This document shows positions 42,372 through 50,994 of a stretch of DNA of 64,000 nucleotides, piece by piece (the first letter of the stretch is position 1; the number at the start of each line of letters is the position of its first letter). The notes under the pieces are model-generated. The model saw only the letters and a program-made list of their open reading frames with translations, was not told the DNA's origin and made no database searches. This DNA comes from Balanoglossus misakiensis (Eukaryota; Animalia; Hemichordata), in assembly GCA_040954595.2 (NCBI GenBank), contig CM082588.2, positions 4,714,156 through 4,778,155 of the forward strand. Direction: 5' to 3'. Made by a program: the position numbers and the translations under genes.

Positions 42372-43919
42372 TTAATGTACCCAGCTCTGCGTTACGGTGG
42401 GCGTGCTGCTGTTAGTTGAAGTAAATCCTATATTCATGGCCATGTTGGCATTATTTCCATCAAGATTGAAGTCCATTCCTCCAGTGTCGCCTATATCTGG
42501 CTCGTTGCGAATTATACTATCCACATCGCAGTCAAAGCCACCGTTGAACATGTCCAACTCGAGATCGCTGGGGAACCTGTCGTGCATGTTTGTGAGCTGG
42601 TCCGTTGACAGCGGCATGTTTTGTAGCGCGCCCGGGTACTGACGGAGTGACTGCAGCGGGGGCAGGGTCTGAAACTGTTGCTGCTGCTGCTGCTGTTGTT
42701 GTTGGTGTTGCTGTAGCAGTTGTTGTTGTTGTTGCTGTTGTTGTTGTTGTTGTGTGGAGTTGTTGCCCATCAGCTGTGCCAGCAGGCGGCTGTGTTGTTG
42801 TTGTTGCTGTTGCTGGGGTTGTTGCTGCTGCTGCGGTGGTTGTTGCTGCTGGAATGATTGCACTGGGTTGCTGCCATTCCCCAAGCCCATCGGGTTGGCG
42901 CCGGCCAGGGAATTCAGGTGCAGCAGCCGGGCGGCGTTGAACTTCTGCTCGCGGGTCATGGACAACAGCGACTCCTGCAGCGACAGCGAGTTGTCGCGGA
43001 TCGGTGCCTGCGACAGCATCGGGTCCTGCTGGGTCAGCATGGCGTCGTTCAGCTGGACTGGCGATGACTGCTGCAGGCTGGGCATGCCCAGCATGGGATT
43101 CTCCGATATTGTGTTGAGCGGCGGCGACGTCTGAACCCCTTGGTTCAGCGACAGGCTGCCGGGCTGAACGCTGAACTGTCCGCCGAACGACAACCCCGAA
43201 TTGGAGAGCGTCGAGGTCTGCTGCGGGGCGAAGCTCTGCGCCTGTGTGGACAGGGTGAACGTGTTCCCCGTCTGGTTGGTGTACAGCCCCTGGGTCTGTG
43301 CCTGCGGTTCTTGCATTTGCATCTGGGGTGACATGACCGGTGACATGGTCATCTGCTCCAGCCCGATAGTATCCGGGGCGTTCAGATTCATGGTTTCGGC
43401 CAGCGCGTTGGTCAACTGGTCTGTGGTTTGGCGGAGGAGTTCTGACCCGGAGTACGAGGTCACGGGAATAGCACTACTCCAGTCCAGCGGGGATGGCGAC
43501 ATCGGAGGCACTTCGTTGTCGTGCATGTCGTCGATGTCGTTGGCCATGATGGGGGACAGGCGACCACAGCTGCTGGCGTTCGAGCTGGTGCGCGGCCGGA
43601 AATCTGGGCTCAGTTGGAACGCTGGCAGCGGCGACTCGGCCCCCATGATATCGCTGCCGTCCGGCGTCTGCGGGCTCCACTTGGATCGGTCGCCAGAGGC
43701 GGCGAGTTTCGCGGCCAGCTCGGCGGCCTTCTTTTTGGCACGACCGCGTTTCTTCTCGAACTGTTTGTTGCTGGTGTCCATACTGACAGCTCGGCGTCTT
43801 GACGACTTGCCAGTTTTGGTGGCGTCCGGGTTGATCATCCACCACGAGCTTTTGCCAGTGCCTTCATTTTGCACGCGCACAAATCGCTGGTGGAGCGACA
43901 GATTATGCCGGATGGAGTT
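42372..43919 (-). CDS. FoxO: FoxO coding exon 2 (515 aa + stop; total protein 638 aa)
   Basis: TTTCAG|AAC acceptor; NSIRHNLSLH recognition helix, RRRAVS (Akt site 2), RPRTSS (Akt site 3), poly-Q tract, FDCDVDSII/DFNLD CR3-type transactivation motif, ends SWVH-TAA. Intron 43920-44367 is 448 bp. Confidence 0.97.
   Translation of the reverse strand, partial: NSIRHNLSLHQRFVRVQNEGTGKSSWWMINPDATKTGKSSRRRAVSMDTSNKQFEKKRGRAKKKAAELAAKLAASGDRSKWSPQTPDGSDIMGAESPLPAFQLSPDFRPRTSSNASSCGRLSPIMANDIDDMHDNEVPPMSPSPLDWSSAIPVTSYSGSELLRQTTDQLTNALAETMNLNAPDTIGLEQMTMSPVMSPQMQMQEPQAQTQGLYTNQTGNTFTLSTQAQSFAPQQTSTLSNSGLSFGGQFSVQPGSLSLNQGVQTSPPLNTISENPMLGMPSLQQSSPVQLNDAMLTQQDPMLSQAPIRDNSLSLQESLLSMTREQKFNAARLLHLNSLAGANPMGLGNGSNPVQSFQQQQPPQQQQQPQQQQQQQHSRLLAQLMGNNSTQQQQQQQQQQQLLQQHQQQQQQQQQQFQTLPPLQSLRQYPGALQNMPLSTDQLTNMHDRFPSDLELDMFNGGFDCDVDSIIRNEPDIGDTGGMDFNLDGNNANMAMNIGFTSTNSSTPTVTQSWVH
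42676..42849 (-). repeat. Mixed CAG/CAA poly-glutamine tract within FoxO exon 2
   Basis: Runs of tgc/tgt/ttg triplets on the + strand encode several Q runs in the FoxO frame. Confidence 0.9.
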
Positions 43920-44367
43920 CTGAAATAAATCCAGGGAGGGAAAGTTTGATTGTATTTGCTGGATTACGACGTGACGCACGCATTTAACATGCAGATCAAG
44001 AAAACAAACAATCGCGCGATCGGTGGAAAAGTTGTGCATTGTGCAAAATATGCACGCACATCATGTCGATTTCACGTCCGCGTCTTACGGGGGAATGTTT
44101 ATTGTTTCCGTTACTGTGATCGGATTTCAACGACAACTTGAAATCGACATGAAGTTTACGTGAACTCGGCACGACTGTGGTCAAAATGGCGGCTAGTTAC
44201 CATATCTCAGGTTACCTATTCATGAGATGTCAATAAGTTATGGAACACACCATGCAAATGTCACTATGATCATATAGCGTCGTCGCGTCGGCTGATTTAA
44301 GAACAATTAATGTGTGAATCACCGATTCACACCTCGGCCAGACGCTCTAATTGAAAACAATGCTTAC

Positions 44368-44736
44368 CTTCCAGCCCGCAGAACTGTTGCTGTCACCTTT
44401 ATCTTTGAAGTAGGGGACATTTTTGACCATCCATTCGTAAATTTGTGATAGGGTCAACCGCTTGTCCGGGGCACTCTCGATAGCTTTGGTGATCAGATCG
44501 GCGTACGATAGATTTCCCCACGCGTTTCTCCTCGAAGAATTCTTTCGGCTCGGCGTGCTTTGATCCGGTTTGATGTCTGCATTTTCCTGTGCAGTTTCCA
44601 GTTCAGGTGTCGGCTGATCGGACGAAGGTGGCGACGGCTTCTGGATGGAGAAATCAGGTCGGGGGAGGGGCCATGTGCAAGATCGCGGACGACTCTGCGG
44701 CTCGAAGTCGGGATCTATCTCCGGTATTTCTGCCAT
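44368..44736 (-). CDS. FoxO: FoxO forkhead transcription factor, coding exon 1 (123 codons)
   Basis: [23 protein letters not shown] (Akt site 1), then [55 protein letters not shown]. Ends at a phase-0 AAG|GTAAGC donor at the WK/NSIRH junction typical of FoxO genes. Confidence 0.97.
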
Positions 44737-44963: not shown

Positions 44964-45136
44964 TGACGTAGTGAGGTTGCCACAGGTCATGGTGCTGGTC
45001 GATTGACCAATCACAGCTCGAGCTTTCTAATCAATTATCCCGTGACCATTGATTTTATCGACCATTACGTCAAATAACTGCCAATCATTTACCAGCTGAT
45101 CCAATGGTGTCCACGATCCGGCTCACGTGCCACGTG
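44964..45136 (-). promoter_or_regulatory. FoxO proximal promoter with blocks conserved in the paralog
   Basis: TGACGTAG (44964), CACAGGTCATGGT (44981-44993), CCAAT box, a 47-bp block at 45028-45074 ending in TTACGTCA, and tandem CACGTG E-boxes (45124-45136). Most of these recur upstream of the paralog. Confidence 0.65.
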
Positions 45137-45853: not shown

Positions 45854-45902
<49 letters not shown>

Positions 45903-45968
45903 GTCATCATCATCATCATCATCATCATCTTCATCATCATCCTCCTCATCGTCGTCGTCATTATCATC
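45854..45968. repeat. (CAT)n microsatellite upstream of FoxO
   Basis: Visible; produces the spurious poly-H/S/D ORFs. Confidence 0.95.
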
Positions 45969-46620
45969 AGTTGGGAAGCAAGACTTCATAGCACCATATC
46001 GGTCGACTGAAAAAATGCAGGTCGATGCTACATAATCATGGATGAACCTACTATGCATACAAGAAACAAGCCCTCCGTGATGATGAAACAACTCAACATA
46101 CCTGAAGCTAGCTACTAGTAAAGCATTCCGTGAATGAGCTCTGTGATGACTCGAAACGTCTGCGTCGTGTTTCTGAGGTAGAATATTAAGAGGCGTAGTA
46201 AAAATCACTCTTACTACGACCGTGAAGAGACCACGTGATGTTGTTTACGACGCAACGCAGTTGCTGAGAAGTGTTACGTAACCCGTCTTTTAATTGATGT
46301 GTGACAATGGCTACTGTAATACACGCCCACCCACACCTGATATTTGCATGTGTTTCAAGAGAAGCAGACTGAAGTAGGTGGGGTTAGCAGATTTCTTGGT
46401 CGATTCACAGAATCCTGGTCGAGCCCCCACTGTCACTGTCAACACGACAGAATCACAGAATGGACACTCGTGTATTCAAAGAAAGCGGTTACACAACATC
46501 ATGACGCGTTCGGTCTTAATTCCCGGAGTTGATATCAATTGGATGAATTTTCATTTTCATGTAATACGAGACACATACGTAATTGCTTTCTTCAGAAAGC
46601 TTACGTTGTTTTCTGTCTGT

Positions 46621-46718
46621 CATCACTATCATCATCATCATCATCATCATCACCACCACCACCACCACAACTACCACCAACAACCACCACCACCATCGTC
46701 ATCGTCATATCGTCGTCA
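46621..46718. repeat. (CAT)n/(CAC)n degenerate microsatellite
   Basis: Visible trinucleotide run. Confidence 0.9.
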
Positions 46719-47620: not shown

Positions 47621-47667
47621 TGAACCCTTCACCACCTCGGACCAAACCATGGTGTTGGAAGGGTTAA
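47621..47667. mobile_element. Internally deleted copy of the same mini-MITE
   Basis: Reverse complement reads TTAACCCTTCCAACACCATGGTTTGGTCCGAGGTGGTGAAGGGTTCA and shares CACCATGGTTTGGTCCGA with 36301-36318. Confidence 0.55.
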
Positions 47668-49246
47668 ACATACATTAATTTGAATGATGCAGATTGTAAC
47701 ATCTTGATGTGTAGAACTGCTGGGAAGAATGTTACATTTGGGAAGATCAGGGTGCATATTTATAAATCAAATAACGCCATAAATTACTTAATACGTCCAA
47801 GTAGAAATTCAGGAGGCAGACAAACCTTCAAAAATAAAGGCGAATCTGGCCGGTAGAGGGCGTAAGAGTATTTGACGCCTCAGCTGCACGCCGCGATCGC
47901 TGTCATTCTTGCAATCACATCCCTGCTAAAATTGCAAAACCAAATTCGAAAGTTTCCTCGAATCATTAATTCACTTTGCATGAATGAATGAATACTTATC
48001 TACATCACTTCTTGCAATGCGCAGCGCCTTGTCCATCAGTACACCTGTGAACTTTTGACGAAGGAACTGGCCAATCAAATAAAGCCAATTTTACGAGATA
48101 CTTTCGCAAATCAGGTTCTTTCGCGTAACAATCCTTCTTCGAGCATGTGGTTGAACAATACTCAACCACTTATTCGATACATGTACGCACCATACAACTG
48201 TGAGGGTGGCATTCATACCTAGAAGATATCACCACAGACATTTCAGAAGTTTCGGGCAGTTACAAGTGCATCTTTTCGACCGATTCAGATCACCCTTGTG
48301 ACTGCCATATAAGCGACTTGCTTTCAAAACCCTTTTCATTTTCAAACGGTGGTCGATTTATTAGTTTATGAAAGGGTTTGTTTACGACTGCAGTAAACGC
48401 AGGTGTGTAGTTCCTTCTGCTGTAAATAGGACACTTGACAGGTAGCCTGGCAACGTGAATGTTTGTACATCGGGTGATTTATTTTTTTACAGACAGACGC
48501 TGGAACAGACCGAGTTTGGGTTGATCTTATCTCGCTTGTCGTGAGCAAAGTTTATGCTGTATGCCTACACCTGATCATGATATCGTTCTGCATTACAGGT
48601 TAAACCCGTGACTTCAGATCAAATAATCAAGTATACATTCGTATAAAAAACGATAACAAAACGAAAGAAAATGTCAAAAAATGTCAATGAAGTGAACGTT
48701 CAGAAAAAAATGAAACTAGTATCCATATGTAAAACTCAGAAAATGAATATTTATCTATTCATTTTTTATGCGGGATATTTAAAATGGTTCTGGGGTCCTT
48801 TAAATGTCGTGTCATGTCGAACTGAACATCTATAAAATTCGAGGCTTTGCATGGTGTGAATATAGGTACAATTGGACAAGATAAAGTTTATATCTGTATT
48901 TTTGTCATCTTCTAGACACCCATTGTGGGTTGTTATACATAAACACTCCTTCACTTGTCGCAAACATGATAATTTTAACACACTACGTTCGTTTTTTGTG
49001 CTTGATTGGTCGATAAAAGATTATGGTAAACTTTGTCGGTTTTGCCCCTTAAAGTCTGGATGAATCGACAGTCGGTCTTCGCCATTTCTCGGGTCAAATG
49101 TCACGTGAATAGTATATCGTGACTTTTTCAGAGATAATTGCTCAGTTTCAGGTCCGGCAAATAGATCCTAGCAGGCGATAATGGCGACATAGTTTGTACC
49201 TTGAATTCAGGGTCAACGTCCGGACTTAATAATCATTTTTGTCAAT

Positions 49247-49468
49247 TCATTTTTTTATCAATTCAAGACCAGTTTCTGCTTTTCCCATTTCGCCTTGTTT
49301 TCCTGGCGGCCGCGTTGATGCGTGTTTCGAAAGTCCGGAGCGACGTCGCATGGATTTGCCGTTTCTGGGAGCGTTCGGGTTGACGACCCACCACGAACTC
49401 CTGCCCGAGCCCTCGTTCTGTATGCGTTCAAAACGACCATGCAGCGTCAGGGTGTGTCGGATAGAGTT
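49247..49468 (-). CDS. Truncated FoxO paralog, exon 2 (73 aa + stop; total about 194 aa)
   Basis: TTTTTCAG|AAC acceptor; [31 protein letters not shown] completes the forkhead domain. After RRR a net 17-nt deletion shifts the frame into a ~30-aa novel tail ending at TGA. Confidence 0.82.
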
Positions 49469-49864
49469 CTGAAAAATGAAATCAAGATTTTTTAGATATT
49501 TCGATGGCAAAATCGAAACATGACACGATCGAGGTCAGCAGAAACTTTCTTTTGTGTATTTAGAAAATTACGTCAACTCTTTTTTCTGCATCACGACCTT
49601 CTTGACATTTTGATAACAGAAACTATGTACCTTGTAAACGAATAAATCGTGGCCAATATTTAAGAGTTCTGTGACTCCCACACGTCCGGGGTCAAACTGA
49701 CGGATCGTTTTTTTGTGTACTATTTGGCATTTGTCAATAAATTATAAAACGCTGTGTAATTTAATGCAACGAATCATAAACCCAGGCGTCGGTTTTCCAG
49801 TGTTGTGCATGTTAGAATTGTTCAGCCTAAAGTGGTCAACTTCCACCGTGCGAGTTAGCCTCAC

Positions 49865-50227
49865 CTTCCAACCTGACGAGCTGTTGCTATTTCCCTTGTC
49901 CTTGAAGTAAGGGATATTTCTAACCATCCATTCGTAGATTTGTGATAGAGTCAGGCGTCTGTCCGGAGCGCTTTGGATAGCTTTGGTGATCAAATCGGCG
50001 TAAGATAAATTTCCCCACGCGTTTCGCCTTGAATAGTTTTTCCGGGTGGGTGCAAATTGGTGTTGCCTGACGTCAACGGGGTTCTCCGGCAAAATCAGTG
50101 GCGGTGGTGGTCTGTACTCCGATATTGGCAGTTGGTTTGCGGGTGTTGACGGCTTCTGTGTGGAGAGATCCGGCAGTGACGGACGCATAGGGCATGTGCA
50201 GGATGGTGGGTGTCGTATAACTGCCAT
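49865..50227 (-). CDS. Truncated FoxO paralog, exon 1 (121 codons)
   Basis: ATG context homologous to the FoxO start (ctgccatattagcgc vs ctgccattttcgcgc on +). [13 protein letters not shown]...[55 protein letters not shown], then an AAG|GTGAGG donor at the same position and phase as in FoxO. Confidence 0.85.
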
Positions 50228-50409
50228 ATTAGCGCACATGATGCAAAAATAGACTCGATATGTACAGCTGTTAGCGACTACTGTGGTCCAGATGGGAATT
50301 CCAAGCAGCAAAGTTTGTGTGTGGCCAGCAGTTGAACCCGAACTCCGCAATGAATTCAAACTCAGAAACTCCGCTTTCGATAAACCTATCTATTTACGTG
50401 TCTCGGCTG

Positions 50410-50648
50410 TGACGTAGCATTGAAGGCAGTGTTCAGTTGTAAACTTTTGTCGGGATATGAACCAACACGATTAGTTTGACACAGGTCATGGTACGGACTT
50501 CTTACGTGTGGATCGATAACGTTTCGCGTTAATCAATTATCACATTGCCATTGATTTTATCAACCATTACGTCAAAGACCCGTCAGTCATTGACTGGGAA
50601 ACTACTGAATTCAGTTGTATGCCAGCATATCGTGCAGCAAGTCACGTG
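50410..50648 (-). promoter_or_regulatory. Paralog promoter, homologous to the FoxO promoter
   Basis: TGACGTAG (50410), CACAGGTCATGGT (50480-50492), a 47-bp block at 50530-50576 that is 42/47 identical to 45028-45074, and CACGTG at 50643. Confidence 0.65.

Positions 50649-50900: not shown

Positions 50901-50901
<1 letters not shown>

Positions 50902-50994
<93 letters not shown>
50902..50994. repeat. Perfect (CAT)31 microsatellite upstream of the FoxO paralog
   Basis: Uninterrupted 93-bp CAT run. Confidence 0.95.

What the first reader, a model, noticed from the sequence alone, without database searches (positions are those of the whole stretch)
49865..50032. Substitution pattern argues the paralog is under purifying selection rather than a dead pseudogene
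I compared by hand the 56 codons SRRNAWG...GWK in FoxO (44368-44535) and the paralog. About 20 codons differ only synonymously and 6 change amino acid, all conservatively (A>S, D>N, V>I, K>R twice, E>Q). The two introns (448 vs 396 bp) are barely alignable, so the duplication is old, yet the domain has no stop or frameshift.
Basis: seen in the sequence. Interest (0 to 1): 0.75.

Follow-up and report, generated by a model that had tools for sequence, protein, structure and literature searches.

The report
Truncated, insulin-deaf FoxO duplicate under selection
Beside its ordinary FoxO gene, this animal (likely an acorn worm) carries an old duplicate cut down to the DNA-binding domain, with no insulin/Akt control sites and no activation tail; that domain was kept by purifying selection and the gene is likely still transcribed, so it may act as a natural brake on FoxO.

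Summary
Observation confirmed: 20 synonymous-only and 6 replacement codons in 56; introns 448 and 396 bp do not align beyond chance. Over 89 forkhead codons omega is 0.07 (p 2e-15 against 1); with every replacement charged to the paralog and equal synonymous shares it is 0.14. Near-saturated synonymous sites exclude gene conversion. The 16 replacements are far more conservative than neutral ones (0 of 647 stop-free simulations). It keeps the DNA-contact residues and resembles the engineered dominant-negative Delta256-Foxo1. Best reading: a live forkhead-only FoxO that likely competes with FoxO for sites (0.45). Against: the spliced allele differs at 8 of 169 coding letters, unclassified; no ortholog found; no DNA outgroup for true branch dN/dS.

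The parts
49865..50227 (-). Paralog (B) coding exon 1, 121 codons: diverged N-terminus without the Akt motif, then first half of the forkhead domain (49865-50032 is the finding). A second in-frame ATG lies at 50239.
   Evidence: Pfam Forkhead E 9e-12; start context matches FoxO's ATG; three length changes against FoxO between anchors are -30, +6, +18 nt, all in frame
49469..49864 (-). Paralog intron, 396 bp, GT..AG, same position and phase as FoxO's
   Evidence: skipped exactly by a contig of run X3 (joint 49468-49865)
49247..49468 (-). Paralog coding exon 2, 73 codons plus stop: second half of forkhead domain through the RRR cluster, then a 30-residue tail unlike FoxO
   Evidence: matches FOXO3/FOXO1 structures over residues 1-44/47 only; omega 0.087 over 33 codons
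48460..49246 (-). Likely 3' UTR of the paralog; AATAAA at 48478-48483
   Evidence: X3 contigs cover 48483-48877 and 49055-49309, running through the stop without a joint there; signal located; the end itself is inferred
50530..50594 (-). Conserved upstream non-coding block of the paralog, about 300-370 bp before the ATG (likely cis-regulatory)
   Evidence: 83% identical over 65 bp to 45028-45092, E 1e-13; 0 of 200 shuffles reach the score
45028..45092 (-). Matching upstream block of FoxO, at the same distance from its ATG
44368..44736 (-). FoxO (A) coding exon 1, 123 codons, with Akt motif 1
43920..44367 (-). FoxO intron, 448 bp, GT..AG
42372..43919 (-). FoxO coding exon 2, 515 codons plus stop, with Akt motifs 2 and 3 and the FOXO transactivation domain
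   Evidence: Pfam FOXO-TAD E 1e-14; 5 of 5 listed allelic changes in this exon are synonymous

Best explanation
The paralog is a tandem FoxO duplicate reduced to a 194-residue forkhead-only reading frame with no Akt motif and no transactivation domain, whose DNA-binding domain evolved under purifying selection; it is likely still expressed and would likely bind FoxO sites without activating them, acting as an insulin-insensitive competitor of FoxO. Shown: gene structure, loss of motifs, low omega, filtered replacements, conserved upstream block, a contig spliced across its intron. Inferred: that this contig is RNA, that protein is made, that it is nuclear (it keeps the RRR basic cluster, is about 22 kDa, and has no Akt site for 14-3-3 export), that it binds FoxO elements, and that it dampens FoxO targets in cells where the shared upstream block turns on both genes.
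For: Omega 0.068 over 89 codons, bound 0.14 on the paralog. Replacements: mean BLOSUM62 +1.19 against -0.41 +/- 0.39 neutral, 0 of 647 stop-free simulations reach it; 5 of 16 at the 57 invariant positions against 10 expected (Fisher p 0.004). RxRxxS/T motifs: 3 in FoxO, 0 in the paralog, while 150 of 150 full-length homologues keep the one after the domain. FOXO-TAD found in FoxO only; no remnant of FoxO's tail downstream of the paralog by blastn, tblastn or local alignment. The 20 codons after RRR are 15-16 of 20 conserved between FoxO and six amphioxus/echinoderm FoxOs but only 27 of 60 bases match in the paralog, which fits release for over half of its branch (7 of 1000 at half), so the domain was likely kept after the tail was let go. 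The residues equal to FOXO1 Asn211, His215, Arg225 and Ser235 are kept and Ser218 becomes Thr; these are the DNA contacts named in PMC8034652 (passage). Spliced contig in X3, absent from X1 and X2; X3 has 28 Mb of contigs against 339 and 314 and no cover in the intron. Precedent: Delta256-Foxo1 lacks the transactivation domain and is dominant-negative (PMC2173790, passages).
Against: X3 is listed as 'DNA?' with no library on record, one contig at depth 5.9, one sample. That contig differs from the window at 8 of 169 coding letters, about the rate of 3' UTR pieces (9/204, 11/221, 19/255); synonymous-only variation predicts 1.5-2.6 (P 0.0002-0.005); only one of the 8 was listed and it is synonymous. 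Replacements fall 13:1 on the paralog, five at near-invariant sites, two of them in the recognition helix (NSIRHNLS to NSIRHTLT; 32 of 32 distinct homologues keep N and S), so binding may be weaker or changed. No ortholog of the paralog was found. No protein, localisation, binding or phenotype data. The tail argument fails if a recent deletion brought in unrelated DNA (27/60 is itself only p 0.066 against shuffles).
Confidence: 0.45

Rival explanations
1. Long selected but recently released: the paralog is now a transcribed young pseudogene and makes no useful protein.
For: A model with strict constraint followed by neutrality fits best at death in the last 15% of the branch, range about 7-30%. 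8 of 169 coding differences in the spliced allele. Two radical changes (Q>G, V>E) and two helix-3 changes. A possible one-base frameshift near 49335, right at Akt site 2 (p 0.066).
Against: If the replacements came from a neutral phase they would be random; they are not (0 of 647), so such a phase can hold only the last few changes. Splice sites, in-frame indels, start context and upstream block are intact.
Confidence: 0.2
2. A live but neofunctionalised forkhead protein: altered DNA preference or partner-dependent activity in its own tissue, acting independently of FoxO rather than against it.
For: 13:1 rate asymmetry and changes at five invariant positions including helix 3 and wing 1; flatworm FoxO paralogs diverge in cell-type expression (bioRxiv 10.1101/2025.01.09.632129, passages).
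Against: The two base-reading residues of the N(S/A)IRH motif are kept (PMC8501956, passages), so the core motif should be shared; no EH1, WRPW, PxDLS or LxxLL motif was found by pattern; the shared upstream block suggests overlapping expression.
Confidence: 0.22
3. What is selected is mainly exon 1, used as an alternative first exon spliced to FoxO's exon 2, giving a full-length FoxO isoform without Akt site 1 (as recalled for nematode daf-16 isoforms).
For: Same strand, upstream position and same intron phase make the splice in frame; exon 1 is more conserved (omega 0.041) than exon 2 (0.087).
Against: The only joint seen goes from paralog exon 1 to paralog exon 2; exon 2 is itself constrained (p 2e-6 against omega 1); a poly(A) signal follows it.
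Confidence: 0.08
4. Dead since duplication, similarity due to recent origin, gene conversion or an assembly artefact.
For: None found.
Against: pS about 0.7, unalignable introns, 0 of 1000 neutral simulations; two runs hold the region at diploid-like depth with two alleles.
Confidence: 0.02

Closest known systems
FoxO subfamily of forkhead transcription factors (FOXO1/3/4/6, DAF-16, amphioxus and echinoderm FoxO)
   Same: Forkhead domain with the FoxO insert and the same intron position as sea-urchin FoxO (PMC11353378, passages); best structural relatives by sequence are FOXO3, FOXO1, FOXO4.
   Different: No Akt motifs, no transactivation domain, 194 aa, helix 3 reads NSIRHTLT. Saccoglossus is reported with a single FoxO (PMC4077281, passages), as are amphioxus and urchin (PMC8805411, passages).
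Engineered dominant-negative Delta256-Foxo1
   Same: Keeps N-terminus and DNA-binding domain, lacks the transactivation domain (PMC2173790, passages); the paralog's homology ends at the RRR just before Akt site 2, which is FOXO1 Ser256 (numbering recalled).
   Different: Natural, separate gene with its own upstream region; has also lost Akt site 1; activity untested.
Human FOXO3B and dominant-negative FOXO4/AFX splice variants
   Same: Partial duplicate or shortened FoxO forms that are expressed (PMC10611805, passages; PMC2447181, abstract).
   Different: FOXO3B is described as cytosolic and without DNA binding, and the AFX variants have a damaged or missing N-terminal part; here the DNA-binding domain is the part that was kept.
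Lineage-specific FoxO expansions in flatworms (Stenostomum, Macrostomum)
   Same: Invertebrate FoxO paralogs retained after duplication (bioRxiv 10.1101/2025.01.09.632129, passages).
   Different: The passages seen do not describe truncation or loss of Akt sites.
microProteins / truncated-paralog antagonists (concept recalled, e.g. Id proteins)
   Same: Single-domain derivative of a larger factor that would inhibit its parent.
   Different: Those usually keep a dimerisation domain and lose DNA binding; this keeps DNA binding and would compete on DNA. At 194 aa it is larger than the usual cut-off (recalled).

Membership tests
FoxO subfamily (by descent) | Forkhead domain with FoxO signature and the acidic/glycine insert before helix 3 | tested here: met
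   Pfam Forkhead on both exons (exon 2 half alone E 1e-4, below the whole-domain cut-off); 73 of 89 residues identical to neighbouring FoxO; top PDB matches all FoxO-type
FoxO subfamily (by descent) | Groups with FoxO of the same genome in a tree | tested here: inconclusive
   Both fall in an unresolved deuterostome group (86/92), paralog on a long branch (0.99 against 0.1) (unresolved). Shared upstream block and N-terminal DNA similarity support common origin.
Canonical insulin-regulated FoxO | Three Akt RxRxxS/T sites | tested here: not met
   0 in paralog, 3 in FoxO
Canonical insulin-regulated FoxO | C-terminal transactivation domain | tested here: not met
   PF16676 in FoxO only; no remnant downstream
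Canonical insulin-regulated FoxO | DNA-contact residues of helix 3 and wing 1 (Asn211, His215, Ser218, Arg225, Ser235) | tested here: inconclusive
   Four kept, Ser218 to Thr, neighbouring Asn to Thr; binding itself not testable
Unprocessed pseudogene | Neutral evolution or disabling lesions in the conserved domain | tested here: not met
   very recent loss not excluded
Unprocessed pseudogene | Neutral polymorphism today | tested here: inconclusive
   8 of 169 coding differences in one contig, 1 classified (synonymous)
Dominant-negative FoxO (Delta256-like) | DNA-binding domain without transactivation domain | tested here: met
Dominant-negative FoxO (Delta256-like) | Protein is made, nuclear, and suppresses FoxO-driven transcription | not testable with these tools
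   only a spliced contig

The most novel reading that the evidence does not exclude
A naturally evolved, separately encoded dominant-negative FoxO: a forkhead-only protein that shed all three Akt sites and the activation tail early, shares an upstream control block with FoxO, and sets an insulin-independent threshold on FoxO target genes in an invertebrate deuterostome. We found no report of such a gene in nine full-text searches (listings seen, open-access library only).
Probability: 0.4. Interest if true: 0.7.

Novelty: new variant of a known kind. Interest (0 to 1): 0.5.

Why it matters
FoxO is usually single-copy in invertebrate deuterostomes and is the main output of insulin signalling for growth, stress resistance and lifespan. 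A retained duplicate built like the laboratory dominant-negative would show that evolution has made a built-in FoxO brake that nutrients cannot switch off, and gives a clean test case for how a truncated duplicate survives by antagonising its parent. If it is only a young pseudogene, it remains a tidy example of long constraint followed by decay, of modest interest.

Tried and rejected
Gene conversion: rejected, synonymous sites near saturation. Remnant of FoxO's C-terminus or a third coding exon between the genes: none by tblastn, blastn, local alignment (26 of 40 shuffles equal or better) or ORF scan. One-base frameshift after RRR: best offset 27 of 60 bases, p 0.066, not established. Ortholog search: exon-2 query gave 1 hit among 29 candidates of 168-2000 aa, an ordinary FoxO; exon-1 query gave 1236 hits, best 150 listed, 16 read in full, none paralog-like, and 115 of 115 helix-3 matches among 270 proteins read WKNSIRHNLS; no hemichordate FoxO appeared among the best 120 of either FoxO search, so these blanks are weak. 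No RNA holder listed. Run X3 has no cover on FoxO itself nor on the 5' part of paralog exon 1; a hole proves nothing. Allele-level detail in the paralog's coding sequence was not obtained, so pN/pS stays open. No whole genome is held, so other copies elsewhere in the genome were not checked. The ESM Atlas gave no result. AlphaFold of exon 2 alone (half a domain, no alignment) gave pLDDT 65, pTM 0.28, uninformative. Trees did not resolve the paralog's position (later trees in both scripts did not finish). FoxO-type elements near either promoter: only loose matches, no enrichment tested. Earlier-findings look-ups by place, words and sequence gave nothing on this locus. Supplements of papers were not read; Fox-gene count tables there could list further hemichordate FoxO copies.

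Full report
Layout. Two FoxO-type genes lie in tandem on the minus strand, 5.5 kb apart. FoxO (A) has coding exons 44736-44368 and 43919-42372 and encodes 638 aa. The paralog (B), upstream of it, has coding exons 50227-49865 and 49468-49247 and encodes 194 aa; the introns (448 and 396 bp) sit at the same codon in the forkhead domain. A's best database matches are amphioxus and echinoderm FoxO; trees put it among deuterostomes but outside the echinoderm, amphioxus and vertebrate clades without resolving it further. Earlier unchecked notes on other pieces of this genome call the animal an acorn worm; this fits but I could not confirm it, since no hemichordate FoxO was among the listed hits.

The observation. 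The counts are exact: 20 codons differ only synonymously and 6 change the residue. The introns align no better than 18 of 200 shuffles. Nei-Gojobori gives pS 0.68, pN 0.045 for the 56 codons and pS 0.73, pN 0.16 for the first 33 codons of exon 2. A pairwise codon model written for this purpose gives omega 0.041, 0.087 and 0.068 for exon 1, exon 2 and both, with omega=1 rejected at p 2e-11, 2e-6 and 2e-15. Synonymous distance is about 1.3-2.1 and poorly determined because it is close to saturation.

Which copy changed. Of 377 proteins fetched, 353 had an ungapped exon-1 half (175 distinct) and 157 the whole domain (32 distinct exon-2 halves); the rest were left out. Of the 16 A/B differences in 89 positions, four echinoderm outgroups agree with A at 13, with B at 1 (E/Q) and with neither at 2 (relative-rate p 0.001). 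So B evolves much faster than A. Even so, charging every replacement to B gives omega 0.14 if B carries half of the synonymous distance and 0.27 if a quarter; neutrality is compatible only if B carries about 10% or less, a ninefold rate gap between neighbours. Simulated death at birth gives about 63 replacements, 0 of 1000 runs at 16 or fewer. Gene conversion cannot produce low dN with saturated dS.

Could it have died recently? A strict-then-neutral model fits best with the last 15% of B's branch neutral (range about 7-30%), and counts alone cannot tell this from steady omega near 0.14. The nature of the changes can: their mean BLOSUM62 is +1.19 against -0.41 +/- 0.39 for neutral changes, reached by 0 of 647 stop-free simulations (1353 of 2000 had a stop; with 13 changes 1 of 795), and 5 of 16 fall on the 57 invariant positions where about 10 are expected. 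The replacements were therefore filtered as they arose. A death too recent to have left more than a few changes remains possible.

Other signs of constraint. Three anchor-bounded length changes in the N-terminal part of exon 1 are -30, +6 and +18 nt (about 1 in 27 by chance). A 65-bp non-coding block 300-370 bp upstream is 83% identical between the genes at the same spacing (E 1e-13; 0 of 200 shuffles), whereas the 230 bp nearer the ATG do not align.

Transcription. Three runs of one sample were laid. X3, listed as 'DNA?' with no library on record, holds a contig that jumps from 49468 to 49865, exactly B's intron; X1 and X2 do not show this joint. X3 has 28 Mb of contigs against 339 and 314 Mb, its depth over B is accounted for by exon and 3' pieces with none in the intron, another contig runs through the stop codon, and cover ends near an AATAAA at 48478-48483. 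The spliced contig carries the synonymous allele at 49463 that X1 shows on an intron-containing second haplotype. I read X3 as RNA; this is inference, from one contig at depth 5.9. Against my reading, that contig differs from the window at 8 of 169 coding letters, as often as the 3' pieces (9/204, 11/221, 19/255); synonymous-only variation at those rates predicts 1.5-2.6. Seven of the eight were not listed, so I cannot say whether they are replacements, a deep allele or contig errors. In A, 5 of 5 listed coding differences are synonymous.

What B has lost and kept. B has no RxRxxS/T motif against three in A; both arginines of site 1 are gone and the serine of site 2 is leucine. 150 of 150 full-length homologues keep the motif after the domain and 138 of 150 match site 1. 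The FOXO transactivation domain is found in A only and nothing downstream of B resembles A's tail. The 20 codons after RRR are 15-16 of 20 identical between A and six amphioxus/echinoderm FoxOs, yet B matches A at only 27 of 60 bases at the best offset; simulation fits release of this tail for more than half of B's history (7 of 1000 at half, 175 of 1000 at all), provided the stretch is homologous. A one-base shift near 49335 is suggested but not significant (p 0.066); all three frames stop within 30 codons. B keeps the residues equal to FOXO1 Asn211, His215, Arg225 and Ser235, and has Thr for Ser218, a backbone contact (PMC8034652, passage); Asn and His are the usual base readers (PMC8501956, passages). 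It keeps the RRR basic cluster, lacks the second one.

Mechanism. The simplest account is a small protein that stays nuclear whatever the insulin state, binds FoxO elements perhaps more weakly, recruits no co-activator, and so competes with FoxO. This is how the engineered Delta256-Foxo1 is described (PMC2173790, passages). Binding, localisation and repression are all predictions. I put a live, selected gene at about 0.75 and the competitor mechanism at 0.45 overall; independent new function 0.22; recent pseudogene 0.2; alternative first exon for FoxO 0.08; dead from birth or conversion 0.02.

Comparison and novelty. B is a FoxO by descent but fails two defining features of the insulin-regulated type, so it should not be filed as a second ordinary FoxO. 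Saccoglossus is reported to have one FoxO (PMC4077281, passages); amphioxus and urchin one each (PMC8805411, passages); flatworms have expansions (bioRxiv 10.1101/2025.01.09.632129, passages). Human FOXO3B and AFX variants are shortened forms that lose DNA binding or the N-terminal part (PMC10611805, passages; PMC2447181, abstract), the reverse of B. PMC9539403 (passages) added nothing. Nine full-text searches listed no report of a forkhead-only, Akt-site-free FoxO paralog; I saw listings only for most papers and no supplements. Verdict: observation confirmed, interpretation supported with the limits stated, new variant of a known kind, interest 0.5.

Noticed in passing
window 55445-about 60100, minus strand: A Tubby-family gene (Pfam Tub, E 7e-14; TULP4-like by recalled motif) lies upstream of the paralog; it is a useful synteny marker for finding the locus in relatives. 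Human TULP4 and FOXO3 are both on chromosome 6q (recalled).
   Followed up: partly
window 45854-45969 and 50901-50994: A (CAT)n microsatellite lies upstream of both genes (about 1.1 kb and 0.7 kb from the ATG); it may mark the duplicated unit or be chance, as a third such run lies at 46620-46695.
   Followed up: no
window 48877-49055: The second haplotype replaces 177 bp of the paralog's likely 3' UTR by 16 other letters in all three runs; alleles around the paralog look about 5% apart, against about 1% in the listed contigs around FoxO.
   Followed up: no
window 47637-47675: A short high-copy repeat (depth in the thousands) sits between the two genes.
   Followed up: no
window 42676-42852: FoxO carries long polyglutamine runs before its transactivation domain, as does amphioxus FoxO P0001.
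   Followed up: no
P0122, P0123 (unnamed proteins): Each holds two forkhead first-halves in a row, likely gene models reading through alternative first exons of the daf-16 kind (label recalled).
   Followed up: no
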